Positions 38,501 through 64,000 of a stretch of DNA of 64,000 bases are shown here, piece by piece. The notes beneath the pieces are model-generated. The model ran no database searches. It was not told the origin of the DNA and was given only the letters and a program-made list of their open reading frames with translations. Position 1 is the first letter of the stretch. The number at the start of each line of letters is the position of its first letter. This DNA comes from the human T2T-CHM13v2.0 reference genome, Homo sapiens. Both the position numbers and the translations under genes were made by a program. The DNA is taken from the NCBI GenBank assembly GCA_009914755.4, contig CP086569.2:51232001-51296000 (forward strand), written 5' to 3'.

Positions 38501-39108
38501 TCAAATTGAAAGGGCTCGAAAGGAATGGAGTCAAATGGAATGGTCTGGAATGGAATGAACACGAATGTAATGCAATCCAATAGAATGGAATCGAATGGCA
38601 TGGAATATAAAGAAATGGATTCGAAGAGAATGGAAACAAATGGAATGGAATTGAATGGAATGGAATTGAATGGAATGGGAACGAATGGAGTGAAATTGTA
38701 TGCAGTAGAAGGGAATAGAATGGAATGCAAGCGAAAGGAAAGGAATGGATTGGAATGGAATGGAATTCATTGGAATGGAAGGGAATGTAGTGTAATGGAC
38801 AGGCCTGGAATAAAGTGGAATGCTACGGTCTCGAATGGAATAAAAATGTATGGAATGGAATACAAAGAAACGGAATCGAATGTCATAGAATGTAATGGAA
38901 TGCAACAAAATGGAATCCAAAATCATTGACTGGAAAGGCTGGGTGTCGAAAGGAATTGACTCCAATGGAATGGAATCGAATGGAATGGAAGTGAATAGAA
39001 TCGAACTAAATCGAATGGAATGGAATTGATAGGAACGGAATGGAAAGGAATGCAATGATTTGGCATGGAATGGAATCGAATGGCATCGAATGGAATGGAA
39101 TGGAATGC
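35530..39108 (+). repeat. Higher-order repeat unit 11 (3579 bp variant)
   Basis: Landmark recurrence. Near-identical to unit 12. Confidence 0.8.
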
Positions 39109-42100
39109 AATGGAATGGAATGTATTAGAATGTAATGAACTTTAATGGAATGTACTCGAATGGATTCGACTGGAATGGAATGTTCTGGAAGTGAATGGAC
39201 TCCAATGGAATGGATTCAAAAGGAATGGAATCGTACGGAATGGAATCTAATGGAATGGAATTAAATGGAAATGAATCAAATTGAATAGCACGGAATTGAA
39301 TTGAATGGAATGGAATGCAATGGAATCTAATGAAACGGAAAGGAAAGGAATGGAATGGAATGGAATGGGCTGGAATGGAAAGGAATCGAAACGAATGGAA
39401 TGGAATCGAACTGAAGAGACTGGAATGGAATGCACTGGAATGGAAGGGAGTGTAATGGAAGGTTCTCGAAAAAAATGGAATCGAATGGAATGGAATTGAA
39501 TGGAACGGAATAGAGTCGAATGGAATTGAATGGAATGGAATGGACTAGAGTGAAATGGAATTGAACCACAAGGAATGGAGAGGAATAGAATGGTCTCGAA
39601 TTGAATGGAATCGTATGGAATGGCATCAAACGGAATGGAATGGACAGCCACGGAATGGAATGCACTCGAATGCAATGGAGTCGAAACTAATGGACTGGAA
39701 TAGAATGGACTCGACTGGTACGGACTCCAATGGAATGGAATCGAATGGAAGGGAATCGAACGGAATGGACTCGAAGGGAAAAGACTGCAATGGAAAGGTC
39801 TCGAATGGAATGGAAATTAATGGAATGGAATGGAATCGAATGAAATGGAGTCAAAAGGAATGGAATCGAATGGCAAGAAATCGAATGTAATGGAATCGCA
39901 AGGAATTGATGTGAACGGAACGGAATGGAATGGAATCCAAAGGAATGGAATAGAATGGAATGGAATCGAATGGAAAGGACTCGAATGGAAATCACTCGAA
40001 TAGAATGCAATTTAATAAAATAGGATCAAATGTAATGGAACGGAATGGAAAGGAATCGAAACGAAAGGAATGGAGACAGATGGAATGGAATAGAACAGAG
40101 AGCAATGGTATAGAATGGAATGGAATCATCTGGAATGGAATTGAATGGAATGGAATAATATGAAATGGAATGGAATGGAATGGAATGGAATGGAATGCCC
40201 TTGAATTAAATGGACTGGAATGGAATGGACTCGAACAGAGTGGAATGGAAAGTGTTGAGATAGAATGGAATGGACTCCTTTGGAATGGTGTAGTATGCAA
40301 TGCAATCGACTGGCAGGGAATCAAAAGGAATGTAATCGAATGGATTGGACTGGAATGCAATGGACTCGAATAGATTGGAAACGGAATGCAAAGGAATGGA
40401 ATGGAATAGTATGGAATGGAATGGAAAGGAATGGAGTGGAATAGACTAGAGTGGAATGGAATGGACTGGAAAGCAATGGACTGGAATGGAACTTTCTTGA
40501 ATGGACTGGAATCAAACGGAATGGAATGCAATGCAATCAAATGGCATGGAATAAAATAGAATGAAAGAGAATCAAATGGAATTGAATCGAATGGAATCGA
40601 ATGGATTGGAAAGGAATAGAATGGAATGGAATGGAATGGACTCAAATGGAATGGACTAGAAAGGAATGGATTCGAATGGAAGGCAAAGGAATGGAATCTA
40701 TTGGAATGGACTGTAATGGAATGGAATGGAAGGGATTGGAATGGACTCGAATGGAATGGACTGCAATAGAAAGGATTCGAATGGAATGAAAAAGAATTGA
40801 ATGGAATAGAACAGAATGGAATCATATCGAATGAAATGGAACGGAATAGAAAGGAATGGAATGAAATGGAATGGAAAGGATTCGAATGGAATGCAATCGA
40901 ATGGAATGGAATCGAACGGAATGGAATAAAATGGAAGAAAACTGGCAAGAAATGGAATCGAAATGAATGGAGTGTTATGGAACGGACTCAAAAGGAATTG
41001 AATGTAATAGAATGGAGTGGAGTGGACTCGAATATAATGGACTGGAATGGAATGAAATCACATGGAATGGGAACGAATGGAATGGAATGGAAAGGAATGG
41101 AATCGAATGGAAAGGAATCGAATGGAAGGGAATGAAATTGAATCAACAGGAATGGAAGGGAATAGAATAGACGGTAATGGAATGGACTCGAATAGAATGG
41201 ACACGAATGCTCAAATTGAATGGACTCGAATGGAATGGAAACGAAAGGAATGTCATCGAATGGAATTGAATCGATTGGAATGAAATCGCATAGAATGGAG
41301 TGGAATCAAATGGAATTGAATCGAAAGGAAAGGAAGCGAATGGACTGAAATGAAATGGAATGGAATTGAATGGAAAGTAATGCAATGGAATAGAATGGAA
41401 CGAAATTTCACGGAATGGAATCAAACTGAATGGAATCAAATCAATGGAATCTAATCAAATGGAATGGAAAGGAATTGAATGGAGTAGATTGGATTGGATG
41501 GGATTGGAATGAAATGTACTGGAAAGGACTCGAATTTCATGAAACGGAATGGAATGAATTGGAACGGAACGGACTCGAATGGAATGGAATGTCATGGAAT
41601 GGCATCAAATGGAATGGCATCAAATGGAATGGAATCGAATGCAATGGAATGTTATGGAATGGAATGGAATGCATTGGAATGGAATGTCCTCTAATGGAAT
41701 GGATTCGAGTGGAATGGAATCGAATATAATGGAGTCGAATGAAATGGAATTGAAAGGAATGGGATCGAATAGAATGGAATATACTGGAATGTAATGTAAT
41801 GAACTCGAATGTTATTGACTGGAATGGAATGTACATGAATGGAAGGTAATCGAATGGAAAGTAATCCAATGGAATAGAATCTAATGCAATAAAATCGACT
41901 CAGATAGAGTAGAATGTAATGGAATGGAGTGCAGTGCAATGGAATGGAATGGAATTGAATGCAATGCAATGGAATGGAATGGAATGGAATGGAATGGAAT
42001 GGAATGGAATGGAATGGGATGGAATGGTATGGAATGGATAGTAATGGACTGGAGTGAAGTGGACTGGAAAGGAATGGACTCAAATTGAAAGGGCTCGAAA

Positions 42101-42687
42101 GGAATGGAGTCAAATGGAATGGTCTGGAATGGAATGAACACGAATGTAATGCAATCCAATAGAATGGAATCGAATGGCATGGAATATAAAGAAATGGATT
42201 CGAAGAGAATGGAAACAAATGGAATGGAATTGAATGGAATGGAATTGAATGGAATGGGAACGAATGGAGTGAAATTGTATGCAGTAGAAGGGAATAGAAT
42301 GGAATGCAAGCGAAAGGAAAGGAATGGATTGGAATGGAATGGAATTCATTGGAATGGAAGGGAATGTAGTGTAATGGACAGGCCTGGAATAAAGTGGAAT
42401 GCTACGGTCTCGAATGGAATAAAAATGTATGGAATGGAATACAAAGAAACGGAATCGAATGTCATAGAATGTAATGGAATGCAACAAAATGGAATCCAAA
42501 ATCATTGACTGGAAAGGCTGGGTGTCGAAAGGAATTGACTCCAATGGAATGGAATCGAATGGAATGGAAGTGAATAGAATCGAACTAAATCGAATGGAAT
42601 GGAATTGATAGGAACGGAATGGAAAGGAATGCAATGATTTGGCATGGAATGGAATCGAATGGCATCGAATGGAATGGAATGGAATGC
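39109..42687 (+). repeat. Higher-order repeat unit 12 (3579 bp variant)
   Basis: Landmark recurrence. The pseudo-ORF strings are identical to those of unit 11 at an offset of exactly 3579 bp. Confidence 0.8.
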
Positions 42688-45600
42688 AATGGAATGGAAT
42701 GTATTAGAATGTAATGAACTTTAATGGAATGTACTCGAATGGATTCGACTGGAATGGAATGTTCTGGAAGTGAATGGACTCCAATGGAATGGATTCAAAA
42801 GGAATGGAATCGTACGGAATGGAATCTAATGGAATGGAATTAAATGGAAATGAATCAAATTGAATAGCACGGAATTGAATTGAATGGAATGGAATGCAAT
42901 GGAATCTAATGAAACGGAAAGGAAAGGAATGGAATGGAATGGAATGGGCTGGAATGGAAAGGAATCGAAACGAATGGAATGGAATCGAACTGAAGAGACT
43001 GGAATGGAATGCACTGGAATGGAAGGGAGTGTAATGGAAGGTTCTCGAAAAAAATGGAATCGAATGGAATGGAATTGAATGGAACGGAATAGAGTCGAAT
43101 GGAATTGAATGGAATGGAATGGACTAGAGTGAAATGGAATCGAACCACAAGGAATGGACAGGAATAGAATGGTCTCGAATTGAATGGAATCGTATGGAAT
43201 GGCATCAAACGGAATGGAATGGACAGCCACGGAATGGAATGCACTCGAATGCAATGGAGTCGAAACTAATGGACTGGAATAGAATGGACTCGACTGGTAC
43301 GGACTCCAATGGAATGGAATCGAATGGAAGGGAATCGAACGGAATGGACTCGAAGGGAAAAGACTGCAATGGAAAGGTCTCGAATGGAATGGAAATTAAT
43401 GGAATGGAATGGAATCGAATGAAATGGAGTCAAAAGGAATGGAATCGAATGGCAAGAAATCGAATGTAATGGAATCGCAAGGAATTGATGTGAACGGAAC
43501 GGAATGGAATGGAATCCAAAGGAATGGAATAGAATGGAATGGAATCGAATGGAAAGGACTCGAATGGAAATCACTCGAATAGAATGCAATTTAATAAAAT
43601 AGGATCAAATGTAATGGAACGGAATGGAAAGGAATCGAAACGAAAGGAATGGAGACAGATGGAATGGAATAGAACAGAGAGCAATGGTATAGAATGGAAT
43701 GGAATCATCTGGAATGGAATTGAATGGAATGGAATAATATGAAATGGAATGGAATGGAATGGAATGGAATGGAATGCCCTTGAATTAAATGGACTGGAAT
43801 GGAATGGACTCGAACAGAGTGGAATGGAAAGTGTTGAGATAGAATGGAATGGACTCCTTTGGAATGGTGTAGTATGCAATGCAATCGACTGGCAGGGAAT
43901 CAAAAGGAATGTAATCGAATGGATTGGACTGGAATGCAATGGACTCGAATAGATTGGAAACGGAATGCAAAGGAATGGAATGGAATAGTATGGAATGGAA
44001 TGGAAAGGAATGGAGTGGAATAGACTAGAGTGGAATGGAATGGACTGGAAAGCAATGGACTGGAATGGAACTTTCTTGAATGGACTGGAATCAAACGGAA
44101 TGGAATGCAATGCAATCAAATGGCATGGAATAAAATAGAATGAAAGAGAATCAAATGGAATTGAATCGAATGGAATCGAATGGATTGGAAAGGAATAGAA
44201 TGGAATGGAATGGAATGGACTCAAATGGAATGGACTAGAAAGGAATGGATTCGAATGGAAGGCAAAGGAATGGAATCTATTGGAATGGACTGTAATGGAA
44301 TGGAATGGAAGGGATTGGAATGGACTCGAATGGAATGGACTGCAATAGAAAGGATTCGAATGGAATGAAAAAGAATTGAATGGAATAGAACAGAATGGAA
44401 TCATATCGAATGAAATGGAACGGAATAGAAAGGAATGGAATGAAATGGAATGGAAAGGATTCGAATGGAATGCAATCGAATGGAATGGAATCGAACGGAA
44501 TGGAATAAAATGGAAGAAAACTGGCAAGAAATGGAATCGAAATGAATGGAGTGTTATGGAACGGACTCAAAAGGAATTGAATGTAATAGAATGGAGTGGA
44601 GTGGACTCGAATATAATGGACTGGAATGGAATGAAATCACATGGAATGGGAACGAATGGAATGGAATGGAAAGGAATGGAATCGAATGGAAAGGAATCGA
44701 ATGGAAGGGAATGAAATTGAATCAACAGGAATGGAAGGGAATAGAATAGACGGTAATGGAATGGACTCGAATAGAATGGACACGAATGCTCAAATTGAAT
44801 GGACTCGAATGGAATGGAAACGAAAGGAATGTCATCGAATGGAATTGAATGGATTGGAATGAAATCGCATAGAATGGAGTGGAATCAAATGGAATTGAAT
44901 CGAAAGGAAAGGAAGCGAATGGACTGAAATGAAATGGAATGGAATTGAATGGAAAGTAATGCAATGGAATAGAATGGAACGAAATTTCACGGAATGGAAT
45001 CAAACTGAATGGAATCAAATCAATGGAATCAAATCAAATGGAATGGAAAGGAATTGAATGGAGTAGATTGGATTGGATGGGATTGGAATGAAATGTACTG
45101 GAAAGGACTCGAATTTCATGAAACGGAATGGAATGAATTGGAACGGAATGGACTCGAATGGAATGGAATGTCATGGAATGGCATCAAATGGAATGGCATC
45201 AAATGGAATGGAATCGAATGCAATGGAATGCTATGGAATGGAATGGAATGCATTGGAATGGAATGTCCTCTAATGGAATGGATTCGAGTGGAATGGAATC
45301 GAATATAATGGAGTCGAATGAAATGGAATTGAAAGGAATGGGATCGAATACAATGGAATATACTGGAATGTAATGTAATGAACTCGAATGTAATTGACTG
45401 GAATGGAATGTACATGAATGGAATGTAATCGAATGGAAAGTAATCCAATGGAATAGAATCTAATGCAATAAAATCGACTCAGATAGAGTAGAATGTAATG
45501 GAATGGAGTGCAGTGCAATGGAATGGAATGGAATGGAATGCAATTGAATGGAATGGAATGGAATGGGATGGAATGGTATGGAATGGATAGTAATGGACTG

Positions 45601-46236
45601 GAGTGAAATGGACTGGAAAGGAATGGACTCAAATTGAAAGGGCTCGAAAGGAATGGAGTCAAATGGAATGGTCTGGAATGGAATGAACACGAATGTAATG
45701 CAATCCAATAGAATGGAATCGAATGGCATGGAATATAAAGAAATGGAATCGGAGAGAATGGAAACAAATGGAATGGAATTGAATGGAATGGAATTGAATG
45801 GAATGGGAACGAATGGAGTGAAATTGTATGCAGTGGAAGGGAATAGAACGGAATGCAAGCGAAAGGAAAGGAATGGATTGGAATGGAATGGAATTCATTG
45901 GAATGGAAGGGAATGTAGTGTAATGGACAGGCCTGGAATAAAGTGGAATGCTACGGTCTCGAATGGAATAAAAATGTATGGAATGGAATGCAATGAAATG
46001 GAATCGAATGTCATAGAATGTAATGGAATGCAACAAAATGGAATCCAAAATCATTGACTGGAAAGGCTGGGTGTCGAAAGGAATTGACTCCAATGGAATG
46101 GAATCGAATGGAATGGAAGTGAATAGAATCGAACTAAATCGAATGGAATGGAATTGATAGGAACGGAATGGAAAGGAATGCAATGATTTGGCATGGAATG
46201 GAATCGAATGGCATCGAATGGAATGGAATGGAATGC
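42688..46236 (+). repeat. Higher-order repeat unit 13 (3549 bp)
   Basis: Landmark recurrence. Its proximal two thirds are identical to units 11 and 12. Confidence 0.8.
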
Positions 46237-49200
46237 AATGGAATGGAATGTATTAGAATGTAATGAACTTTAATGGAATGTACTCGAATGGATTCGACTG
46301 GAATGGAATGTTCTGGAAGTGAATGGACTCCAATGGAATGGATTCCAAAGGAATGGAATCGTACGGAATGGAATCTAATGGAATGGAATTAAATGGAAAT
46401 GAATCAAATTGAATAGCACGGAATTGAATTGAATGGAATGGAATGCAATGGAATCTAATGAAACGGAAAGGAAAGGAATGGAATGGAATGGAATGGGCTG
46501 GAATGGAAAGGAATCGAAACGAATGGAATGGAATCGAACTGAAGAGACTGGAATGGAATGCACTGGAATGGAAGGGAGTGTAATGGAAGGTTCTCGAAAA
46601 AAATGGAATCGAATGGAATGGAATTGAATGGAACGGAATAGAGTCGAATGGAATTGAATGGAATGGAATGGACTAGAGTGAAATGGAATCGAACCACAAG
46701 GAATGGAGAGGAATAGAATGGTCTCGAATTGAATGGAATCGTATGGAATGGCATCAAACGGAATGGAATGGACAGCCACGGAATGGAATGCACTCGAATG
46801 CAATGGAGTCGAAACTAATGGACTGGAATAGAATGGACTCGACTGGTACGGACTCCAATGGAATGGAATCGAATGGAAGGGAATCGAACGGAATGGACTC
46901 GAAGGGAAAAGACTGCAATGGAAAGGTCTGGAATGGAATGGAAATTAATGGAATGGAATGAAATCGAATGAAATGGAGTCAAAAGGAATGGAATCGAATG
47001 GCAAGAAATCGAATGTAATGGAATCGCAAGGAATTGATGTGAACGGAACGGAATGGAATGGAATCCAAAGGAATGGAATAGAATGGAATGGAATCGAATG
47101 GAAAGGACTCGAATGGAAATCACTCGAATAGAATGCAATTCAATAAAATAGGATCAAATGTAATGAAATGGAATGGAAAGGAATCGAAACGAAAGGAATG
47201 GAGACAGATGGAATGGAATGGAACAGAGAGCAATGGTATAGAATGGAATGGAATCATCTGGAATGGAATTGAATGGAATGGAATAATATGAAATGGAATG
47301 GAATGGAATGGAATGGAATGCCCTTGAATTAAATGGACTGGAATGGAATGGACTCGAACAGAGTGGAATGGAAAGTGTTGAGATAGAATGGAATGGACTC
47401 CTTTGGAATGGTGTAGTATGCAATGCAATCGACTGGCAGGGAATCAAAAGGAATGTAATGGAATGGACTGGACTGGAATGCAATGGACTCGAATAGATTG
47501 GAAACGGAATGCAAAGGAATGGAATGGAATAGTATGGAATGGAATGGAAAGGAATGGAGTGGAATAGACTAGAGTGGAATGGAATGGACTGGAAAGCAAT
47601 GGACTGGAATGGAACTTTCTTGAATGGACTGGAATCAAACGGAATGGAATGCAATGCAATCAAATGGCATGGAATAAAATAGAATGAAAGAGAATCAAAT
47701 GGAATTGAATCGAATGGAATCGAATGGATTGGAAAGGAATAGAATGGAATGGAATGGAATGGACTCAAATGGAATGGACTAGAATGGAATGGATTCGAAT
47801 GGAAGGCAAAGGAATGGAATCTATTGGAATGGACTGTAATGGAATGGAATGGAAGGGATTGGAATGGACTCGAATGGAATGGACTGCAATAGAAAGGATT
47901 CGAATGGAATGAAAAAGAATTGAATGGAATAGAACAGAATGGAATCAAATCGAATGAAATGGAATGGAATAGAAAGGAATGGAATGAAATGGAATGGAAA
48001 GGATTCGAATGGAATGCAATCGAATGGAATGGAATCGAACGGAATGGAATAAAATGGAAGAAAACTGGCAAGAAATGGAATCGAAATGAATGGAGTGTTA
48101 TGGAACGGACTCAAAAGGAATTGAATGTAATAGAATGGAGTGGAGTGGACTCGAATATAATGGACTGGAATGGAATGAAATCACATGGAATGGGAACGAA
48201 TGGAATGGAATGGAAAGGAATGGAATCGAATGGAAAGGAATCGAATGGAAGGGAATGAAATTGAATCAACAGGAATGGAAGGGAATAGAATAGACGGTAA
48301 TGGAATGGACTCGAATAGAATGGACACGAATGCTCAAATTGAATGGACTCGAATGGAATGGAAACGAAAGGAATGTCATCGAATGGAATTGAATCGATTG
48401 GAATGAAATCGCATAGAATGGAGTGGAATCAAATGGAATTGAATCGAAAGGAAAGGAAGCGAATGGACTGAAATGAAATGGAATGGAATTGAATGGAAAG
48501 TAATGCAATGGAATAGAATGGAACGAAATTTCACGGAATGGAATCAAACTGAATGAAATCAAATCAATGGAATCAAATCAAATGGAATGGAAAGGAATTG
48601 AATGGAGTAGATTGGATTGGATGGGATTGGAATGAAATGTACTGGAAAGGACTCGAATTTCATGAAACGGAATGGAATGAATTGGAACGGAATGGACTCG
48701 AATGGAATGGAATGTCATAGAATGGCATCAAATGGATTGGCATCAAATGGAATGGAATCGAATGCAATGGAATGCTATGGAATGGAATGGAATGCATTGG
48801 AATGGAATGTCCTCTAATGGAATGGATTCGAGTGGAATGGAATCGAATATAATGGAGTCGAATGAAATGGAATTGAAAGGAATGGGATCGAATACAATGG
48901 AATATACTGGAATGTAATGTAATGAACTCGAATGTAATTGACTGGAATGGAATGTACATGAATGGAATGTAATCGAATGGAAAGTAATCCAATGGAATAG
49001 AATCTAATGCAATAAAATCGACTCAGATAGAGTAGAATGTAATGGAATGGAGTGCAGTGCAATGGAATGGAATGGAATGGAATGCAATGGAATGGAATGG
49101 AATGGAATGGAATGGAATGGAATGGAATGGAATGGGATGGAATTGTATGGAATGGATAGTAATGGACTGGAGTGAAATGGACTGGAAAGGAATGGACTCA

Positions 49201-49805
49201 AATTGAAAGGGCTCGAAAGGAATGGAGTCAAATGGAATGGTCTGGAATGGAATGAACACGAATGTAATGCAATCCAATAGAATGGAATCGAATGGCATGG
49301 AATATAAAGAAATGGAATTGAAGAGAATGGAAACAAATGGAATGGAATTGAATGGAATGGAATTGAATGGAATGGGAACGAATGGAGTGAAATTGTATGC
49401 AGTAGAAGGGAATAGAATGGAATGCAAGCGAAAGGAAAGGAATGGATTGGAATGGAATGGAATTCATTGGAATGGAAGGGAATGTAGTGTAATGGACAGG
49501 CCTGGAAAAAAGTGGAATGCTACGGTCTCGAATGGAATAAAAATGTATGGAATGGAATGCAATGAAACGGAATCGAATGTCATAGAATGTAATGGAATGC
49601 AAAAAAATGGAATCCAAAATCATTGACTGGAAAGGCTGGGTGTCGAAAGGAATTGACTGCAATGGAATGGAATCGAATTGAATGGAAGTGAATAGAATCG
49701 AACTAAATCGAATGGAATGGAATTGATAGGAACGGAATGGAAAGGAATGCAATGATTTGGCATGGAATGGAATCGAATGGCATCGAATGGAATGGAATGG
49801 AATGC
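46237..49805 (+). repeat. Higher-order repeat unit 14 (3569 bp)
   Basis: Landmark recurrence. Confidence 0.8.
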
Positions 49806-52800
49806 AATGGAATGGAATGTATTAGAATGTAATGAACATTAATGGAATGTACTCGAATGGATTCGACTGGAATGGAATGTTCTGGATGTGAATGGACTCC
49901 AATGGAATGGATTCGAAAGGAATGGAATCGAACGGAGTGGATTCTAATGGAATGGAATTAAATGGAAATGAATCAAATTGAATAGCACGGAATTGAATTG
50001 AATGGAATCGAATGCAATGGAATCTAATGAAACGGAAAGGAAAGAATGGAATGGAATAGAATGGGCTGGAATGGAAAGGAATCAAAACGAATGGAATGGA
50101 ATCGAACTGAAGAGATTGGAATGGAATGCACTGGAATGGAAGGGAGTGTAATGGAAGGTTCTCGAAAAAAATGGAATCGAATGGAATGGAATTGAATGGA
50201 ACGGAATAGAGTCGAATGGAATTGAATGGAATGGAATGGACTAGAGTGAAATGGAATCGAACCACAAGGAATGGACAGGAATAGAATGGTCTCGAATTGA
50301 ATGGAATCGTATGGAATGGCATCAAACGGAATGGAATGGACAGCCACGGAATGGAATGCACTCGAATGCAATGGAGTCGAAACTAATGGACTGGAATAGA
50401 ATGGACTCGACTGGTACGGACTCCAATGGAATGGAATCAAATGGAAGGGAATCGAACGGAATGGACTCGAAGGGAAAAGACTGCAATGGAAAGGTCTCGA
50501 ATGGAATGGAAATTAATGGGATGGAATGGAATCGAATGAAATGGAGTCAAAAGGTATGGAATCGAATGGCAAGAAATCGAATGTAATGGAATCGCAAGGA
50601 ATTGATGTGAACGGAACGGAATGGAATGGAATCCAAAGGAATGGAATGGAATCGAATGGAAAGGACTCGAATGGAAATCACTCGAATAGAATGCAATTTA
50701 ATAAAATAGGATCAAATGTAATGGAATGGAATGGAAAGGAATCGAAACGAAAGGAATGGAGACAGATGGAATGGAATAGAACAGAGAGCAATGGTATAGA
50801 ATGGAATGGAATCATCTGGAATGGAATTGAATGGAATGGAATAATATGAAATGGAATGGAATGGAATGGAATGCCCTTGAATTAAATGGACTGGAATGGA
50901 ATGGACTCGAACAGAGTGGAATGGAAAGTGTTGAGATAGAATGGAATGGACTCGTTTGGAATGGTCTAGTATGCAATGCAATCGACTGGCAGGAATCAAA
51001 AGGAATGTAATGGAATGGATTGGACTGGAATGCAATGGACTCGAATAGATTGGAAACGGAATGCAAAGGAATGGAATGGAATAGTATGGAATGGAATGGA
51101 AAGGAATGGAGTGGAATAGACTAGAGTGGAATGGAATGGACTGGAAAGCAATAGACTGGAATGGAACTTTCTTGAATGGACTGGAATCAAACGGAATGGA
51201 ATGCAATGCAATCAAATGGCATGGAATAAAATAGAATGAAAGAGAATCAAATGGAATTGAATCGAATGGAATCGAATGGATTGGAAAGGAATAGAATGGA
51301 ATGGAATGGAATTGACTCAAATGGAATGGACTAGAATGGAATGGATTCGAATGGAAGGCAAAGGAATGGAATCTATTGGAATGGACTGTAATGGAATGGA
51401 ATGGAAGGGATTGGAATGGACTCGAATGGAATGGACTGCAATAGAAAGGATTCGAATGGAATGAAAAAGAATTGAATGGAATAGAACAGAATGGAATCAA
51501 ATCGAATGAAATGGAATGGAATAGAAAGGAATGGAATGAAATGGAATGGAAAGGATTCGAATGGAATGCAATCGAATGGAATGGAATCGAACGGAATGGA
51601 ATAAAATGGAAGAAAACTGGCAAGAAATGGAATCGAAATGAATGGAGTGTTATGGAACGGACTCAAAAGGAATTGAATGTAATAGAATGGAGTGGAGTGG
51701 ACTCGAATATAATGGACTGGAATGGAATGAAATCACATGGAATGGGAACGAATGGAATGGAATGGAAAGGAATGGAATCGAATGGAAAGGAATCGAATGG
51801 AAGGGAATGAAATTGAATCAACAGGAATGGAAGGGAATAGAATAGACGGTAATGGAATGGACTCGAATAGAATGGACACGAATGCTCAAATTGAATGGAC
51901 TCGAATGGAATGGAAACGAAAGGAATGTCATCGAATGGAATTGAATCGATTGGAATGAAATCGCATAGAATGGAGTGGAATCAAATGGAATTGAATCGAA
52001 AGGAAAGGAAGCGAATGGACTGAAATGAAATGGAATGGAATTGAATGGAAAGTAATGCAATGGAATAGAATGGAACGAAATTTCACGGAACGGAATCAAA
52101 CTGAATGGAATCAAATCAATGGAATCCACTCAAATGGAATGGAAAGGAATTGAATGGAGTAGATTGGATTGGATGGGATTGGAATGAAATGTACTGGAAA
52201 GGACTCGAATTTCATGAAACGGAATGGAATGAATTGGAACGGAATGGACTCGAATGGAATGGAATGTCATGGAATGGCATCAAATGGTATGGCATCAAAT
52301 GGAATGGAATCGAATGCAATGGAATGCTATGGAATGGAATGGAATGCATTGGAATGGAATGTCCTCTAATGGAATGGATTCGAGTGGAATGGAATCGAAT
52401 ATAATGGAGTCGAATGAAATGGAATTGAAAGGAATGGGATCGAATACAATGGAATATACTGGAATGTAATGTAATGAACTCGAATGTAATTGACTGGAAT
52501 GGAATGTACATGAATGGAATGTAATCGAATGGAAAGTAATCCAATGGAATAGAATCTAATGCAATAAAATCGACTCAGATAGAGTAGAATGTAATGGAAT
52601 GGAGTGCAGTGCAATGGAATGGAATGGAATGGAATGCAATGGAATGGAATGGAATGGAATGGAATGGAATGGAATGGAATGGAATGGAATGGTGTGGAAT
52701 GGATAGTAATGGACTGGAGTGAAATGGACTGGAAAGGAATGGACTCAAATTGAATGGGCTCGAAAGGAATGGAGTCAAATGGAATGGTCTGGAATGGAAT

Positions 52801-53351
52801 GAAGACGAATGTAATGCAATCCAATAGAATGGAATCGAATGGCATGGAATATAAAGAAATGGAATCGAAGAGAATGGAAACAAATGGATTGGAATTGAGT
52901 GGAATGGAATTGAATGGAATGGGAACGAATGGAGTGAAATTGTATGCAGTAGAAGAGAATAGAATGGAATGCAAGCGAAAGGAAAGGAATGGATTGGAAT
53001 GGAATGGAATTCATTGGAATGGAAGGGAATGTAGTGTAATGGACAGGCCTGGAATAAAGTGGAATGCTACGGTCTCGAATGGAATAAAAATGTATGGAAT
53101 GGAATGCAATGAAACGGAATCGAATGTCATAGAATGTAATGGAATGCAAAAAAATGGACTCCAAAATCATTGACTGGAAAGGCTGGGTGTCGAAAGGAAT
53201 TGACTCCAATGGAATGGAATCGAATGGAATGGAAGTGAATAGAATCGAACTAAATCGAATGGAATGGAATTGATAGGAACGGAATGGAAAGGAATGCAAT
53301 GATTTGGCATGGAATGGAATCGAATGGCATCGAATGGAATGGAATGGAATG
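49806..53351 (+). repeat. Higher-order repeat unit 15 (3546 bp; several small indels, including ~10 bp missing near 50641 and a 1 bp loss near 50993)
   Basis: Landmark recurrence. The pseudo-ORF pattern is altered at 50024-50440 and 50712-51623. Confidence 0.75.
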
Positions 53352-56300
53352 CAATGGAATGGAATGTATTAGAATGTAATGAACTTTAATGGAATGTACT
53401 CGAATGGATTCGACTGGAATGGAATGTTCTGGAAGTGAATGGACTCCAATGGAATGGATTCAAAAGGAATGGAATCGTACGGAATGGAATCTAATGGAAT
53501 GGAATTAAATGGAAATGAATCAAATTGAATAGCACGGAATTGAATTGAATGGAATGGAATGCAATGGAATCTAATGAAACGGAAAGGAATGGAATGGAAT
53601 GGAATGGAATGGGCTGGAATGGAAAGGAATCGAAACGAATGGAATGGAATCGAACTGAAGAGACTGGAATGGAATGCACTGGAATGGAAGGGAGTGTAAT
53701 GGAAGGTTCTCGAAAAAAATGGAATCGAATGGAATGGAATTGAATGGAACGGAATAGAGTCGAATGGAATTGAATGGAATGGAATGGACTAGAGTGAAAT
53801 GGAATCGAACCACAAGGAATGGACAGGAATAGAATGGTCTCGAATTGAATGGAATCGTATGGAATGGCATCAAACGGAATGGAATGGACAGCCACGGAAT
53901 GGAATGCACTCGAATGCAATGGAGTCGAAACTAATGGACTGGAATAGAATGGACTCGACTGGTACGGACTCCAATGGAATGGAATCGAATGGAAGGGAAT
54001 CGAACGGAATGGATTCGAAGGGACAAGACTGCAAAGGAAAGGTCTCGAATGGAATGGAAATTAATGGAATGGAATGGAATCAAATGAAATGGAGTCAAAA
54101 GGAATGGAATCGAAAGGCAAGAAATCGAATGTAATGGAATCGCAAGGAATTGATGTGAACGGAACGGAATGGAATGGAATCCAAAGGAATGGAATAGAAT
54201 GGAATGGAATCGAATGGAAAGGACTCGAATGGAAATCACTCGAATAGAATGCAATTTAATAAAATAGGATCAAATGTAATGGAATGGAATGGAAAGGAAT
54301 CGAAACGAAAGGAATGGAGACAGATGGAATGGAATGGAACAGAGAGCAATGGTATAGAATGGAATGGAATCATCTGGAATGGAATTGAATGGAATGGAAT
54401 AATATGAAATGGAATGGAATGGAATGGAATGGAATGCCCTTGAATTAAATGGACTGGAATGGAATGGACTCGAACAGAGTGGAATGGAAAGTGTTGAGAT
54501 AGAATGGAATGGACTCCTTTGGAATGGTCTAGTATGCAATGCAATCGACTGGTAGGGAATCAAAAGGAATGTAATCGAATGGATTGGACTGGAATGCAAT
54601 GGACTCGAATAGATTGGAAACGGAATGCAAAGGAATGGAATGGAATAGTATGGAATGGAATGGAAAGGAATGGAGTGGAATAGACTAGAGTGGAATGGAA
54701 TGGACCGGAAAGCAATGGACTGGAATGGAACTTTCTTGAATGGACTGGAATCAAACGGAATGGAATGCAATGCAATCAAATGGCATGGAATAAAATAGAA
54801 TGAAAGAGAATCAAATGGAATTGAATCGAATGGAATCGAATGGATTGGAAAGGAATAGAATGGAATGGAATGGAATTGACTCAAATGGAATGGACTAGAA
54901 TGGAATGGATTCGAATGGAAGGCAAAGGAATGGAATCTATTGGAATGGACTGTAATGGAATGGAATGGAAGGGATTGGAATGGACTCGAATGGAATGGAC
55001 TGCAATAGAAAGGATTCGAATGGAATGAAAAAGAATTGAATGGAATAGAACAGAATGGAATCAAATCGAATGAAATGGAATGGAATAGAGAGGAATGGAA
55101 TGAAATGGAATGGAAAGGATTCGAATGGAATGCAATCGAATGGAATGGAATCGAACGGAATGGAATAAAATGGAAGAAAACTGGCAAGAAATGGAATCGA
55201 AATGAACGGAGTGTTATGGAACGGACTCAAAAGGAATTGAATGTAATAGAATGGAGTGGAGTGGACTCGAATATAATGGACTGGAATGGAATGAAATCAC
55301 ATGGAATGGGAACGAATGGAATGGAATGGAAAGGAATGGAATCGAATGGAAAGGAATCGAATGGAAGGGAATGAAATTGAATCAACAGGAATGGAAGGGA
55401 ATAGAATAGACGGTAATGGAATGGACTCGAATAGAATGGACACGAATGCTCAAATTGAATGGACTCGAATGGAATGGAAACGAAAGGAATGTCATCGAAT
55501 GGAATTGAATCGATTGGAATGAAATCGCATAGAATGGAGTGGAATCAAATGGAATTGAATCGAAAGGAAAGGAAGCGAATGGACTGAAATGAAATGGAAT
55601 GGAATTGAATGGAAAGTAATGCAATGGAATAGAATGGAACGAAATTTCACGGAATGGAATCAAACTGAATGGAATCAAATCAATGGAATCTAATCAAATG
55701 GAATGGAAAGGAATTGAATGGAGTAGATTGGATTGGATGGGATTGGAATGAAATGTACTGGAAAGGACTCGAATTTCATGAAACGGAATGGAATGAATTG
55801 GAACGGAATGGACTCGAATGGAATGGAATGTCATGGAATGGCATCAAATGGAATGGCATCAAATGGAATGGAATCGAATGCAATGGAATGCTATGGAATG
55901 GAATGGAATGCATTGGAATGGAATGTCCTCTAATGGAATGGATTCGAGTGGAATGGAATCAAATATAATGGAGTCGAACGAAATGGAATTGAAAGGAATG
56001 GGATCGAATAGAATGGAATATACTGAAATGTAATGTAATGAACTCGAATGTAGTTGACTGGAATGGAATGTACATGAATGGAATGTAATCGAATGGAAAG
56101 TAATCCAATGGAATAGAATCTAATGCAATAAAACCGACTCAGATAGAGTAGAATGTAATGGAATGGAGTGCAGTGCAATGGAATGGAATGGAATTGAATG
56201 CAATGGAATGGAATGGAATGGAATGGAATGGAATGGAATGGAATGGAATGGGATGGAATGGTATGGAATGGATAGTAATGGACTGGAGTGAAATGGACTG

Positions 56301-56921
56301 GAAAGGAATGGACTCAAATTGAAAGGGCTCGAAAGGAATGGAGTCAAATGGAATGGTCTGGAATGGAATGAACACGAGTGTAATGCAATCCAATAGAATG
56401 GAAACGAATGACATGGAATATAAAGAAATGGAATCGAAGAGAATGGAAACAAATGGAATGGAATTGAATGGAATGGAATTGAATGGAATGGGAACGAATG
56501 GAGTGAAATTGTATGCAGTAGAAGGGAATAGAATGGAATGCAAGTGAAAGGAAAGGAATGGATTGGAATGGAATGGAATTCATTGGAATGGAAGGGAATG
56601 TAGTGTAATGGACAGGCCTGGAATAAAGTGGAATGCTACGGTCTCGAATGGAATAAAAATGTATGGAATGGAATGCAATGAAACGGAATCGAATGTCATA
56701 GAATGTAATGGAATGCAACAAAATGGAATCCAAAATCATTGACTGGAAAGGCTGGGTGTCGAAAGGAATTGACTCCAATGGAATGGAATCGAATGGAATG
56801 GAAGTGAATAGAATCGAACTAAATCGAATGGAATGGAATTGATAGGAACGGAATGGAAAGGAATGCAATGATTTGGCATGGAATGGAATCGAATGGCATC
56901 GAATGGAATGGAATGGAATGC
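53352..56921 (+). repeat. Higher-order repeat unit 16 (3570 bp)
   Basis: Landmark recurrence. Confidence 0.8.
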
Positions 56922-59659
56922 AATGGAATGGAATGTATTAGAATGTAATGAACTTTAATGGAATGTACTCGAATGGATTCGACTGGAATGGAATGTTCTG
57001 GAAGTGAATGGACTCCAATGGAATGGATTCAAAAGGAATGGAATCGTACGGAATGGAATCTAATGGAATGGAATTAAATGGAAATGAATCAAATTGAATA
57101 GCACGGAATTGAATTGAATGGAATCGAATGCAATGGAATCTAATGAAACGGAAAGGAAAGGAATGCAATGGAATGGAATGGGCTGGAATGGAAAGGAATC
57201 GAAACGAATGGAATGGAATCGAACTGAAGAGACTGGAATGGAATGCACTGGAATGGAAGGGAGTGTAATGGAAGGTTCTCGAAAAAAATGGAATCGAATG
57301 GAATGGAATTGAATGGAACGGAATAGAGTCGAATGGAATTGAATGGAATGGAATGGACTAGAGTGAAATGGAATCGAACCACAAGGAATGGAGAGGAATA
57401 GAATGGTCTCGAATTGAATGGAATCGTATGGAATGGCATCAAACGGAATGGAATGGACAGCCACGGAATGGAATGCACTCGAATGCAATGGAGTCGAAAC
57501 TAATGGACTGGAATAGAATGGACTCGACTGGTACGGACTCCTATGGAAGGGAAAAGAATGGAAGGGAATCGAACGGAATGGACTCGAAGGGAAAAGACTG
57601 CAATGGAAAGGTCTCGAATGGAATGGAAATTAATGGAATGGAATGGAATCGAATGAAATGGAGTCAAAAGGAATGGAATCGAATGGCAAGAAATCGAATG
57701 TAATGGAATCGCAAGGAATTGATGTGAACGGAACGGAATGGAATGGAATCCAAAGGAATGGAATAGAATGGAATGGAATCGAATGGAAAGGACTCGAATG
57801 GAAATCACTGGAATAGAATGCAATTTAATAATATAGGATCAAATGTAATGGAATGGAATGGAAAGGAATCGAAACGAAAGGAATGGAGACAGATGGAATG
57901 GAATAGAACAGAGAGCAATGGTATAGAACGGAATGGAATCATCTGGAATGGAATTGAATGGAATGGAATAATATGAAATGGAATGGAATGGAATGGAATG
58001 GAATGCCCTTGAATTAAATGGACTGGAATGGAATGGACTCGAACAGAGTGGAATGGAAAGTGTTGAGATAGAATGGAATGGACTCGTTTGGAATGGTCTA
58101 GTATGCAATGCAATCGACTGGTAGGGAATCAAAAGGAATGTAATCGAATGGATTGGACTGGAATGCAATGGACTCGAATAGATTGCAAACGGAATGCAAA
58201 GGAATGGAATGGAATAGTATGGAATGGAATGGAAAGGAATGGAGTGGAATAGACTAGAGTGGAATGGAATGGACTGGAAAGCAATGGACTGGAATGGAAC
58301 TTTCTTGAATGGACTGGAATCAAACGGAATGGAATGCAATGCAATCAAATGGCATGGAATAAAATAGAATGAAAGAGAATCAAATGGAATTGAATCGAAT
58401 GGAATCGAATGGATTGGAAAGGAATAGAATGGAATGGAATGGAATGGACTAGAATGGAATGGATTCGAATGGAAGGCAAAGGAATGGAATCTATTGGAAT
58501 GGACTGTAATGGAATGGAATGGAAGGGATTGGAATGGACTCGAATGGAATGGACTGCAATAGAAAGGATTCGAATGGAATGAAAAAGAATTGAATGGAAT
58601 AGAACAGAATGGAATCAAATCGAATGAAATGGAATGGAATAGAAAGGAATGGAATGAAATGGAATGGAAAGGATTCGAATGGAATGCAATCGAATGGAAT
58701 GGAATCGAACGGAATGGAATAAAATGGAAGAAAACTGGCAAGAAATGGAATCGAAATGAATGGAGTGTTATGGAACGGACTCAAAAGGAATTGAATGTAA
58801 TAGAATGGAGTGGAGTGGACTCGAATATAATGGACTGGAATGGAATGAAATCACATGGAATGGGAACGAATGGAATGGAATGGAAAGGAATGGAATCGAA
58901 TGGAAAGGAATCGAATGGAAGGGAATGAAATTGAATCAACAGGAATGGAAGGGAATAGAATAGACGGTAATGGAATGGACTCGAATAGAATGGACACGAA
59001 TGCTCAAATTGAATGGACTCGAATGGAATGGAAACGAAAGGAATGTCATCGAATGGAATTGAATCGATTGGAATGAAATCGCATAGAATGGAGTGGAATC
59101 AAATGGAATTGAATCGAAAGGAAAGGAAGCGAATGGACTGAAATGAAATGGAATGGAATTGAATGGAAAGTAATGCAATGGAATAGAATGGAACGAAATT
59201 TCACGGAATGGAATCAAACTGAATGGAATCAAATCAATGGAATCCAATCAAATGGAATGGAGTAGATTGGATTGGATGGGATTGGAATGAAATGTACTGG
59301 AAAGGACTCGAATTTCATGAAACGGAATGGAATGAATTGGAACGGAATGGACTCGAATGGAATGGAATGTCATAGAATGGCATCAAATGGAATGGCATCA
59401 AATGGAATGGAATCGAATGCAATGGAATGCTATGGAATGGAATGGAATGCATTGGAATGGAATGTCCTCTAATGGAATGGATTCGAGTGGAATGGAATCG
59501 AATATAATGGAGTCGAATGAAATGGAATTGAAAGGAATGGGATCGAATACAATGGAATATACTGGAATGTAATGTAATGAACTCGAATGTAATTGACTGG
59601 AATGGAATGTACATGAATGGAATGTAATCGAATGGAAAGTAATCCAATGGAATAGAATC
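56922..59659 (+). repeat. Higher-order repeat unit 17, truncated (2738 bp) at the junction with the AT-rich repeat
   Basis: The unit reads normally up to ...gtaatccaatggaatagaatc at 59639-59659. Full units continue taatgcaataaaaccgactcagatagag. Here the sequence switches to atatatgatatataatatatg. Confidence 0.85.
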
Positions 59660-60314
59660 ATATATGATATATAATATATGTATAATATTGTTTTACATCC
59701 TGCATCTTATGTTATATATATTGTATAAAATATAATAATTGATTATATATACTTTTATAACATAATTTACATAAAATATCATAATATAATATATATTATA
59801 TTATTTCATATTACATAATATATATTACATATCACCCAATATAAGTAACATACATAATATTATAATATAGATTATATTATGTTATATTAAATATCATATA
59901 TATTATGTATCATATATTCTATAATATATATTATACATTATATAATATGTATGTTGTCTATTATGTGATATATATAACTATACATATAATTATATTATTA
60001 TACGTATAACTAGATAAACATGTAATTCTACATATTTTCATTTATAATATATAGAATTATATAATCATATATAATTATGTATATTCTATAAAAAATTATA
60101 TCATTATATAAATTATAATATATAAAAATTATAATATGTACTACAAATATATATATTATATATCATATATGATATAGTACCTTTGTTATATATCATAATA
60201 CATATAAATGTGTATTATGTTATCTATAATTATATAATTTCATATATAAGATGTATAATATGTGTCATATATTATATATGTTATGTAATATATATAGTAT
60301 ATATAAGATGACAC

Positions 60315-60326
60315 AGGATAAATATT
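60315..60326 (+). repeat. Target-site duplication (5' copy) of the AluY insertion: aggataaatatt
   Basis: The same 12-mer recurs immediately after the poly-A at 60603-60614. The empty site in copy 2 has a single aggataaatatt at 63019-63030. Confidence 0.85.
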
Positions 60327-60619
<293 letters not shown>

Positions 60620-60697
60620 CTATGACATATAAAATATATGAGGTTATATGTTACATATAAGGCATAGCACATAACATGTAATATATATCATATATAA

Positions 60698-60990
<293 letters not shown>

Positions 60991-61560
60991 ATCCACATTT
61001 TTTAAATGAAAAAAAATTTCAAAGGTACTCTGCTTGGTACAATAATCAAATGTATAAACTGAGGAATAAAACATAACCATGAAACCTACTTATAACTGCA
61101 TATGGAAAATACAGAGGATAATTTTTTAAATAACATATTTTGAAAGCCTTAACTAGTAATTTGAAGAGTTGGCATTTGAAAGGCCAGTATGAATATACCT
61201 TCAAAGCAGCAACACAGGTTCCCCATGAGGAAAAGCAAACTCAGGGAAAATAAAACCACAAAGGTTCAATCTCTTCTGACCTTTGAAAGACACAGCACAG
61301 ACAGTGGTCCTTAGGACGAAGAGCAGGAGACCCCTAATTCCGTCACCATGGCGATAGGGCATAAACATTGCTGGGTGAGGGCACAATCCACATTGTGAGG
61401 TCCAACTGCTGCCAGGAAGACAGGTGTGCTTTTACATAGACCGAAAGGTCATTGAAGGCTCAGAGTTTTGTTTCAAGAACTGAATCCCAAGCCCACACGT
61501 TATTAGGCTGCGCTTCTTAAAACATGTTATGAGATGGGAAAAAGGGCACCCACAAACATA
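60991..61560. repeat. Non-AT-rich (~40% GC) segment of the DYZ2-like unit, copy 1; origin not recognisable by eye
   Basis: Complex sequence (cattttttaaatgaaaaaaaatttcaaaggtactctgcttgg ... gggcacccacaaacatacgtatacat) that recurs at 63409-63980 with a few substitutions. Confidence 0.6.
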
Positions 61561-63408
<1,848 letters not shown>

Positions 63409-63980
63409 TCCATATTTTTTAAATGAAAAAAAATTTCAAAGGTACTCTGCTTGGTACAATAATCAAATGTATAAACTGAGGAATAAAACATAACCATGAA
63501 ACCTACTTATAACTGCATATGGAAAATACAGAGGATAATTTTTTAAATAACATATTTTGAAAGCCTTAACTAGTAATTTGAAGAGTTGGCATTTGAAAGG
63601 CCAGTATGAATATACCTTCAAAGCAGCAACACAGGTTCCCCATGAGAAAAAGCAAACACAGGGAAAATAAAAACACAAAGGTTCAATCTCTTCTGACCTT
63701 TGAAAGACACAGCACAGACAGTGGTCCTTAGGACGAAGAGCAGGAGACCCCTAATTCCGTCACCATGGCGATAGGGCATAAACATTGCTGGATGAGGGCA
63801 CAATCCACATTGTGAGGTCCAACTGCTGCCAGGAAGACAGGAGTGCTTTTACATAGACCGAAAGGTCATTGAAGGCTCAGAGTTTTGTTTCAAGAACTGA
63901 ATCCCAAGCCCACACGATATTAGGCTGCGCTTCTTAAAACAAGTTATGAGATGGGAAAAAGGGCACCCACAAACATATGT
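63409..63980. repeat. Non-AT-rich segment of the DYZ2-like unit, copy 2
   Basis: Matches 60991-61560 at an offset of ~2420. Confidence 0.6.
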
Positions 63981-64000
63981 ATACATTATGTATATAATAA

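What the first reader, a model, noticed from the sequence alone, without database searches (positions are those of the whole stretch)
59630..59700. Precise DYZ1-to-DYZ2 array junction inside a higher-order unit
The last DYZ1 unit stops at 59659 (...aatccaatggaatagaatc). That is about three quarters of the way through the unit, at the point where full units continue taatgcaataaaaccgactcagatagag. The sequence then switches abruptly to the AT-rich repeat with no filler and no obvious microhomology beyond about 1 bp. If Yq12 is built from many alternating DYZ1/DYZ2 blocks, one question is whether every junction uses the same breakpoint (one ancestral junction amplified) or different breakpoints (independent events).
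Basis: partly seen in the sequence, partly recalled or inferred. Interest (0 to 1): 0.5.

Follow-up and report, generated by a model that had tools for sequence, protein, structure and literature searches.

The report
Edge between two Y-chromosome satellite arrays
This is a real, sharp boundary where one human Y-chromosome satellite array (DYZ1) stops part-way through a repeat unit and the other (DYZ2) begins; this architecture is already known, and the only new detail is how the join looks base by base.

Summary
Window 1-59659 is a GGAAT-type satellite with a ~3.56-kb higher-order unit. The 20-mer ending at 59659 occurs 17 times. Sixteen copies continue T[A/G]ATGCAATAAAA..., and the 17th switches to AT-rich DNA. 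Identity as DYZ1 and DYZ2 is well supported. DYZ1 has one HaeIII site per unit and 154-bp spacing between the classic DYZ1 primers. DYZ2 has a 2417-bp unit of three parts, a 2.1-kb HaeIII fragment, and is up to 99.7% identical to independent human-contaminant DYZ2 copies.

Two details need correcting. "Three quarters" is counted from the window start; in HaeIII phase the break is about 86% through the unit. "No filler" is uncertain. The first 20 nt after the break fit canonical DYZ2 at only 16/20. Together with the terminal ATC of DYZ1, they are an exact 23-nt inverted copy of a DYZ2 segment about 490 nt downstream. That suggests a templated insert with 3-nt microhomology.

The first DYZ2 unit is a degraded edge unit. 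It has a 765-bp deletion, a young Alu with a target-site duplication, and more substitutions than the next unit. The last DYZ1 unit is normal.

I could not test whether all Yq12 junctions share this breakpoint, because no human assembly was searchable and every junction search returned nothing. The feature is ordinary and of modest interest.

The parts
1..59659 (+). DYZ1 (HSat3A6) array. It holds 16 complete ~3.56-kb higher-order units in the junction phase, plus a partial unit at the window start. The + strand is GGAAT-rich.
   Evidence: The k-mer period is 3529-3579. The 16 units are 98.4-100% identical. There is one GGCC per unit, and the DYZ1 primers lie 154 bp apart.
56617..59659 (+). Last DYZ1 unit in HaeIII phase, truncated after 3043 nt. 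It is not more diverged than the other units.
   Evidence: The last GGCC is at 56615-56618. Unit 16 (56121-59659) differs from the local consensus by 0.57%, within the 0.28-0.90% range of the other units.
59657..59659 (+). ATC, the last three DYZ1 bases. These may be microhomology, because they are also the first three bases of the 23-nt inverted match and of the motif ATCATATAT in canonical DYZ2.
59660..59679 (+). Twenty ambiguous nucleotides (ATATATGATATATAATATAT). They are either diverged DYZ2 (16/20 ungapped against the canonical phase 61599-61618) or a templated filler copied in inverted orientation.
   Evidence: Ungapped alignment. Exact 23-nt inverted match. 27 nt at 96% (I3).
60151..60173 (-). 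Candidate template for the filler. Its reverse complement equals 59657-59679 exactly. The paralogous copy in the next unit is at 62855-62877.
59680..59752 (+). First unambiguous DYZ2 sequence, at the start of the AT-rich part. It corresponds to 61619-61691 of the next unit.
   Evidence: Offset-1939 alignment. The external copies carry the same anchor sequence.
59745..59752 (+). Breakpoint of a 765-bp internal deletion in the first DYZ2 unit. It lacks the equivalent of about 61684-62448. TATATATA is shared by both flanks.
   Evidence: The offset changes from 1939 to 2704. The missing segment is present in the external DYZ2 copies that span it (97% identity in the eight best hits), and none of the 19 contigs carries the deletion junction.
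59753..60326 (+). Remainder of the AT-rich part of the first DYZ2 unit.
   Evidence: The block 59713-60326 is 96.6% identical to 62416-63030. The block 59746-60326 is 98.3% identical to external copies, against 99.5% for the second unit.
60327..60603 (+). Young Alu insertion, 5'-truncated, with a 32-nt poly(A) tail. It is flanked by the target-site duplication GGATAAATATT (60316-60326 and 60604-60614).
   Evidence: Sequence. Poly(A). The empty site is seen at 63009-63030 and in the external copies. It is 76.9% identical to the old DYZ2 Alu.
60604..61561 (+). Rest of the first DYZ2 unit: the old antisense Alu and the GC-richer part.
   Evidence: 99.2% identical to the next unit. 98.6-98.7% identical to external copies, against 99.7% for the second unit.
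61562..63978 (+). First complete canonical DYZ2 unit (2417 bp).
   Evidence: Diagonal of 2417. 99.5-99.7% identical to external DYZ2 copies.

Best explanation
This is a genuine boundary between a DYZ1 (HSat3A6) array and a DYZ2 (HSat1B) array of the human Yq12 heterochromatin.

It was made by a non-homologous joining event, not by homologous exchange. That event fused a DYZ1 unit, 3043 nt after its HaeIII site, to the beginning of the AT-rich part of a DYZ2 unit. The join used at most 3 nt of microhomology (ATC). It most likely includes a 20-nt insert copied in inverted orientation from the AT-rich part of DYZ2, which is the signature of template switching or polymerase-theta-type end joining.

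After that, both arrays grew and were homogenised by unequal sister-chromatid exchange. The truncated first DYZ2 unit sits at the edge and largely escapes homogenisation. It therefore accumulated private changes: a 765-bp deletion, a young Alu insertion and extra substitutions.

Shown here: the break, its phase in both repeats, the identity of both repeats, the degraded edge unit and the inverted 23-nt match. Inferred: the joining mechanism, the order of events, and the idea that the junction has been copied along with multi-block duplications.
For: The break is abrupt: 16 of 16 earlier copies of the pre-junction 20-mer continue as DYZ1 and the 17th does not, with a matching change in composition.

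DYZ1 identity: ~3.56-kb units that are 98.4-100% alike, one HaeIII site per unit, and 154-bp primer spacing.

DYZ2 identity: a 2417-bp unit of three parts, a 2143-bp HaeIII fragment, and up to 99.7% identity to 19 independent contigs.

Published descriptions match. DYZ1 and DYZ2 arrays alternate (34-86 per Y), edge units are more diverged, tandem duplications of up to 5 Mb span several blocks, and young AluY insertions sit in the AT-rich part of DYZ2.

There is no homology between the two repeats at the break. Ungapped alignment gives 0 nt of shared sequence and gapped alignment gives 3 nt.

Window 59657-59679 is an exact reverse complement of 60151-60173 and 62855-62877. Among 2050 start positions in the AT-rich DNA, every other inverted match of 20 nt or more is a palindrome, matching itself or its copy in the other unit. 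The repeat finder extends the match to 27 nt at 96%.

The first DYZ2 unit is more diverged from external copies than the second unit in every segment compared: 95.2 vs 97.6%, 98.3 vs 99.5% and 98.6-98.7 vs 99.7%. It alone carries the 765-bp deletion and the Alu.
Against: The 20 nt after the break are low-complexity AT sequence. They can also be read as canonical DYZ2 with four substitutions (16/20), or as canonical DYZ2 with a 5-nt insertion and a 9-nt deletion.

Sixteen of the 23 template bases form a perfect palindrome (ATATCATATATGATAT). Orientation therefore rests on about 9 nt, and those 9 nt also occur in the canonical phase.

The junction region folds no better than shuffled sequence (z = 0.85), so nothing supports a hairpin-driven break.

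No second copy of the junction was found anywhere. The collections searched contain very little human Y DNA, so this says little either way. Read-level support for the assembly at this point could not be examined.
Confidence: 0.8

Rival explanations
1. The join is a simple blunt end-joining (classical NHEJ) of DYZ1 to DYZ2 with no filler. DYZ2 starts at 59660 in its canonical phase, and the four mismatches in the first 20 nt are later mutations in a hypervariable AT-rich edge.
For: Ungapped alignment at offset 1939 runs right up to 59660 with 16/20 matches, and the bases on the other side of the break do not match. The AT-rich part of DYZ2 is described as highly variable (methods passage). The first unit is more diverged overall.
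Against: Twenty percent divergence over these 20 nt is 4-10 times the divergence of the rest of the same unit (1.3-4.8%). The same 20 nt plus ATC have an exact 23-nt inverted match about 490 nt away. No other non-palindromic inverted match of that length occurs in the AT-rich DNA.
Confidence: 0.35
2. The junction is an assembly chimera. DYZ1 and DYZ2 reads were wrongly joined, so no such molecule exists.
For: Satellite DNA is hard to assemble. Metagenome contigs that join DYZ2 to unrelated DNA show that such chimeras do occur (L005, L011). No independent copy of this junction was found.
Against: Real DYZ1/DYZ2 junctions must exist, at 34-86 arrays per Y. The unit next to the join has the private structural changes expected of a true array edge, namely a deletion, an Alu with a target-site duplication and extra substitutions, rather than the canonical sequence a mis-join would usually bring. 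Published work reports more diverged units at array edges. The negative searches are uninformative, because the collections held only 19 DYZ2 contigs and no DYZ1/DYZ2 junction at all.
Confidence: 0.05
3. The window is not Yq12 but an HSat3/HSat1B junction on an acrocentric short arm, where both satellite families also occur.
For: The T2T-Y paper notes HSat1B on the acrocentric short arms and HSat3 on many chromosomes.
Against: The HSat3 here has the Y-specific 3.56-kb HaeIII higher-order unit and exact matches to the DYZ1-specific PCR primers. It also forms a highly homogeneous array of more than 59 kb. The DYZ2 units match the homogenised 2.4-kb form.
Confidence: 0.03

Closest known systems
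Alternating DYZ1 (HSat3A6) / DYZ2 (HSat1B) arrays of human Yq12, as described for T2T-Y (Rhie et al., preprint 10.1101/2022.12.01.518724) and for 43 Y assemblies (Hallast et al., preprint 10.1101/2022.12.01.518658)
   Same: The unit sizes, composition and three-part DYZ2 structure are the same. So are the more diverged units at array edges and the young Alu insertions in the AT-rich part of DYZ2. Those works annotated array boundaries; in T2T-Y they were 'manually refined'.
   Different: The texts I could read do not give the base-level breakpoint, its phase in each repeat, its microhomology or filler, or a comparison between junctions. What this window adds is a description of one junction, not a new kind of feature.
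Templated insertions at microhomology-mediated junctions (polymerase-theta end joining / MMBIR-type template switching); general knowledge, not tested against a database
   Same: There is a short insert of 20 nt, identical to nearby sequence about 490 nt away, in inverted orientation. It is flanked by 3-nt overlaps at both switch points (ATC on the DYZ1 side, TAT on the DYZ2 side).
   Different: The sequence is AT-rich, low-complexity and partly palindromic, so the match could be coincidental.
Alpha-satellite array edges, where diverged units accumulate at the periphery while the core is homogenised
   Same: The DYZ2 edge unit is more diverged and structurally damaged than its neighbour.
   Different: There is no gradient on the DYZ1 side within the 57 kb visible here, and the last DYZ1 unit is as typical as the others. 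The boundary is base-sharp rather than a zone of decaying monomers.

Membership tests
DYZ1 / HSat3A6 (Yq12) | Higher-order repeat of about 3.5-3.56 kb built from GGAAT-type pentamers | tested here: met
   Dominant k-mer distances are 3529-3579. The 16 units are 3489-3579 bp long and 98.4-100% identical. TRF consensus units are multiples of 5, such as AATGGAATGGAATCG.
DYZ1 / HSat3A6 (Yq12) | One HaeIII (GGCC) site per unit, giving the classical ~3.56-kb (3564-bp) fragment | tested here: met
   There are 16 GGCC sites in 1-59659, one per unit, spaced 3504-3579 bp including 3564. The enrichment at 3564 bp is cited in the Hallast supplement.
DYZ1 / HSat3A6 (Yq12) | Classic Y-specific DYZ1 PCR primers (TCCACTTTATTCCAGGCCTGTCC / TTGAATGGAATGGGAACGAATGG, 154-bp product). 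The primer sequences are recalled from memory, and I could not confirm them in the paper library. | tested here: met
   Each primer matches exactly in 15 of 16 units, in convergent orientation. The amplicon 3122-3275 is 154 bp.
DYZ1 / HSat3A6 (Yq12) | Location on Yq12 | not testable with these tools
   No human assembly is available in the searchable collections.
DYZ2 / HSat1B | Unit of about 2.4 kb (published mode 2413 bp, median 2420 bp) | tested here: met
   Diagonal of 2417 bp.
DYZ2 / HSat1B | Three-part unit: an extremely AT-rich part, an ancient diverged Alu fragment and a GC-richer part | tested here: met
   Sequence. GC is 0.135 in 62001-63000 against about 0.40 in 63001-64000. The old Alu is only 76.9% identical to the young Alu. 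Published description.
DYZ2 / HSat1B | Classical 2.1-kb male-specific HaeIII fragment (from memory of the early literature) | tested here: met
   GGCC at 61182 and the next at 63325, a 2143-bp fragment.
DYZ2 / HSat1B | Near-identity to independent copies of the homogenised repeat | tested here: met
   The second unit is 99.5-99.7% identical to DYZ2-bearing contaminant contigs from unrelated metagenome assemblies.
Retrotransposed young Alu (target-primed reverse transcription) | Target-site duplication, poly(A) tail, and an empty site in paralogous units | tested here: met
   The 11-nt duplication GGATAAATATT is at 60316-60326 and 60604-60614. The tail is 32 A. The site is empty at 63009-63030 and in the external copies. 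I did not determine the subfamily with a tool. The cleavage site does not look like the canonical TTTT/AA, but this was not analysed further.
Templated-insertion junction (template switching / theta-mediated end joining) | An insert identical to a nearby sequence, with short microhomology at both switch points | tested here: inconclusive
   The inverted match is 23/23 (27 nt at 96%), starting at the terminal ATC of DYZ1 and ending in TAT, which is shared with canonical DYZ2. The DNA is low-complexity and the template is partly palindromic, and alternative alignments exist.

The most novel reading that the evidence does not exclude
This exact join recurs at many or all DYZ1-to-DYZ2 transitions of Yq12. 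The recurring features would be the DYZ1 break 3043 nt after the HaeIII site, the 20-nt inverted templated insert, and DYZ2 starting about 37 nt into its AT-rich part, possibly with the 765-bp deletion and the Alu in a subset. If so, the whole alternating Yq12 pattern descends from one illegitimate template-switch event, or very few, that was then multiplied by multi-block tandem duplication. The private markers of the edge unit would then serve as lineage tags for reconstructing the duplication history of the largest human heterochromatin block.
Probability: 0.5. Interest if true: 0.4.

Novelty: already known. Interest (0 to 1): 0.25.

Why it matters
On its own this is one of the dozens of DYZ1/DYZ2 boundaries already known to exist on every human Y. 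It matters only as an entry point. The junction carries a specific phase in both repeats, a possible 20-nt templated insert, a 765-bp deletion and an Alu with a target-site duplication. Together these give a compound marker that could be looked up in complete Y assemblies. That look-up would show whether the alternating Yq12 pattern came from one founding join copied by multi-block duplications, and would help order those duplications. This is a modest refinement of published models of Yq12 evolution by unequal exchange, not a new phenomenon.

Tried and rejected
1. Exact-pattern scans for the junction all returned 0 hits. I ran a gapped pattern in metagenome contigs, a 25-mer spanning the break in genome contigs and viral contigs, and a 31-mer specific to the junction-adjacent DYZ2 variant in genome and viral contigs. 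These results are uninformative. A control DYZ2 anchor found only 19 contigs, and none contains any GGAAT-rich sequence.

2. The junction creates an ATG that opens an 87-aa ORF (59398-59661, minus strand); normal DYZ1 units have TAG at that position. I used this ORF as a junction-specific probe. The exact look-up found nothing. A homologue search with the 102-aa stop-free stretch across the break gave only four chimeric short contigs with no junction.

3. Exact look-ups of ORFs spanning the Alu insertion boundary and of canonical DYZ2 ORFs found nothing on record. Walking along long DYZ2 contigs to reach junctions was therefore not possible.

4. Contigs L005 and L011, where DYZ2 ends, turned out to be chimeras with unrelated, apparently microbial or organellar DNA. 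They are not array boundaries.

5. Hairpin or cruciform formation at the junction is not supported. The fold is no better than shuffles.

6. Rfam found nothing in 59000-64000, as expected.

7. The DYZ1 primer sequences could not be found in the paper library, so they rest on memory.

8. The Hallast supplement held as text does not include Table S28. I therefore could not tell whether the Alu here is one of their A1/A2 insertions.
Full report
**Observation**

Window 1-59659 has a uniform composition, with GC about 0.38-0.40 and GC skew about +0.55. From 59660 the GC content drops as low as 0.135 and the skew vanishes. The dominant self-match distances are 3529-3579 bp in the first part and 2417 bp in the last 4.3 kb.

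The 20-mer TAATCCAATGGAATAGAATC ends at 17 positions, from 2768 to 59659. After each of the first 16 the sequence continues T[A/G]ATGCAATAAAA[C/T]CGACTCAGATAGAG. After the 17th it continues ATATATGATATATAATATATGTATAATATTG. TRF ends the pentamer-based array at 59658/59659. The reported break is therefore real, sharp and at the stated base.

**Identity of the two repeats**

The left repeat has exactly one GGCC (HaeIII) site per unit. There are 16 sites spaced 3504-3579 bp, including 3564. The Hallast supplement cites the 3,564-bp HaeIII fragment as characteristic of DYZ1. The two classic DYZ1 PCR primers, which I recalled from memory and could not confirm in the paper library, each match exactly in 15 of 16 units. 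They face each other 154 bp apart. The 16 units are 98.4-100% identical.

The right repeat has a 2417-bp unit; the published mode is 2413 bp and the median 2420 bp. The unit consists of a roughly 1.45-kb AT-rich part, an old antisense Alu and a GC-richer part, as described for DYZ2/HSat1B. Its HaeIII sites give a 2143-bp fragment, which matches the classical 2.1-kb male-specific band as I remember it.

A DYZ2 anchor 29-mer retrieved 19 stretches from unrelated metagenome assemblies; these are human contamination. The second DYZ2 unit of the window is 99.5-99.7% identical to them. The labels DYZ1 and DYZ2 are thus well supported. Chromosomal location could not be tested.

**Phase of the break**

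'Three quarters of the unit' is true only when counting from window base 1. In the classical HaeIII phase, the last DYZ1 unit is cut 3043 nt after the HaeIII site, about 86% of the way through, and about 496 nt are missing.

On the DYZ2 side, unambiguous homology starts at 59680 (GTATAATATTGTTTTACATCC...). This corresponds to 61619 of the next unit, roughly 57 nt into the AT-rich part. Read ungapped, homology reaches back to 59660, about 37 nt into the AT-rich part.

**The 20 nt at 59660-59679**

These bases can be read in three ways.

- (a) Ungapped, they match the canonical DYZ2 phase at 16/20 with no shared base at the break.
- (b) Gapped, canonical ATCATATAT-ATAATATAT-ATAACCTAT-GTATAAT becomes ATCATATAT-GATAT-ATAATATAT-GTATAAT. 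That requires a 5-nt insertion and a 9-nt deletion, with ATC shared between DYZ1 and DYZ2.
- (c) Together with the terminal ATC of DYZ1, the 20 nt form a 23-mer that is the exact reverse complement of 60151-60173, and of the paralogous 62855-62877. The repeat finder extends this match to 27 nt at 96% (I3).

Among 2050 start positions in the AT-rich DNA, the 99th percentile of the longest inverted exact match is 18 nt. Every other match of 20 nt or more is a palindrome, matching itself or its copy in the other unit. Reading (c) needs only one event: a 20-nt templated insert with 3-nt overlaps at both switch points (ATC and TAT).

I rate (c) slightly above (a). However, the DNA is low-complexity, and 16 of the 23 template bases form a perfect palindrome, so this remains an inference. 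The junction region does not fold better than shuffled sequence.

**The flanking units**

The last DYZ1 unit is ordinary. It differs from the local consensus by 0.57%, against a range of 0.28-0.90% for the others.

The first DYZ2 unit is not ordinary, for three reasons:

- It lacks 765 bp of the AT-rich part. The offset changes from 1939 to 2704 at 59745-59752, where TATATATA is shared by both flanks.
- It carries a young, 5'-truncated Alu on the + strand (60327-60603, with a 32-nt poly(A) tail). The Alu is flanked by the 11-nt duplication GGATAAATATT, and the site is empty in the next unit.
- It is more diverged from the external DYZ2 copies than the second unit in every segment compared: 95.2 vs 97.6%, 98.3 vs 99.5%, and 98.6-98.7 vs 99.7%.

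None of the external contigs carries the deletion or the Alu. This is what published work reports for array edges, where edge units are more diverged than central ones. It also argues against a mis-assembly that joined canonical units.

**Literature**

The T2T-Y and 43-Y preprints describe alternating DYZ1 and DYZ2 arrays, 34-86 per Y. They report iterative tandem duplications of up to 5 Mb that span several blocks, and evolution by unequal exchange. They also report four young Alu insertions, two of them AluY in the AT-rich part of DYZ2, older than the haplogroup radiation and present in 1-17 copies. Boundaries were annotated; in T2T-Y they were 'manually refined'. In the texts available to me, and in two further full-text searches, I found no base-level comparison of junction breakpoints.

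**Mechanism (inferred)**

DYZ1 and DYZ2 share no homology at the break. The join must therefore come from a non-homologous event, either end joining or template switching, with 0-3 nt of microhomology. Homologous unequal exchange then expanded both arrays and copied whole multi-block segments. The truncated edge unit has no in-register partner on one side, so it escapes homogenisation and decays.

The published multi-block duplications make it likely that this junction exists in several copies on the same Y. I estimate this at about 0.5-0.7, but could not test it.

**Attempts to find further copies**

All attempts failed for lack of human Y data:

- Junction patterns gave no hits in metagenome, prokaryote-genome or viral contigs.
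- The ORF created by the junction was not on record, either exactly or through homologues.
- ORFs across the Alu boundary were not on record.
- Canonical DYZ2 ORFs were not on record.

Two contigs in which DYZ2 ends are chimeras with unrelated DNA.

**Verdict**

The feature is real and correctly identified, but it is an instance of a known architecture. Interest is low to modest.

Noticed in passing
window 60316-60614: A young, 5'-truncated Alu lies on the + strand (60327-60603, with a 32-nt poly(A) tail). It is flanked by the target-site duplication GGATAAATATT and sits in the AT-rich part of the first DYZ2 unit. The site is empty in the next unit (63009-63030) and in the external DYZ2 copies. 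This fits one of the AluY insertions reported in DYZ2 by Hallast et al., but I could not show that it is the same one.
   Followed up: partly
window 59745-59752 (missing the equivalent of about 61684-62448): The first DYZ2 unit has a 765-bp deletion inside its AT-rich part, with about 8 nt (TATATATA) shared by both flanks. None of the external DYZ2 contigs carries this deletion.
   Followed up: yes
window 34724-45460: DYZ1 units 10 and 11 (34724-38302 and 38303-41881) are 100% identical, and unit 12 is 99.7% identical to them. All three are the 3579-bp length variant. This points to a very recent local duplication inside the array.
   Followed up: partly
window 2769-59659: DYZ1 unit lengths range from 3489 to 3579 bp and differ mostly by multiples of 5. 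This is consistent with gain and loss of whole pentamers; the exceptions are the 3558-bp and 3552-bp units. One unit lacks an exact match to each of the two DYZ1 primers: the forward primer expected near 13829 and the reverse primer expected near 49494.
   Followed up: no
window 59398-59661, minus strand: The junction creates an ATG from the C of DYZ1 and the AT of DYZ2. This opens an 87-aa ORF running back into DYZ1, whereas normal units have TAG at that position. There is no evidence of function and it is not on record in the protein collection.
   Followed up: yes
L005 (OHQQ01006122.1) about 1500-2937; L011 (OGJJ01000944.1) about 1500-6438: These public metagenome contigs join human DYZ2 to unrelated GC-richer DNA that looks microbial or organellar. 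They are contaminated, chimeric assemblies. The T2T-Y paper warns about this problem for HSat1B and HSat3.
   Followed up: partly
L001, L009, L018 (BNJT01002008.1, 54 kb); L004 (BNJU01004413.1, 54.6 kb): These long metagenome contigs consist of tandem DYZ2 units at 80-97% identity and look like noisy long-read assemblies of human Y DNA. Only 10-13 kb of each could be read, and the unseen parts might contain array junctions.
   Followed up: no
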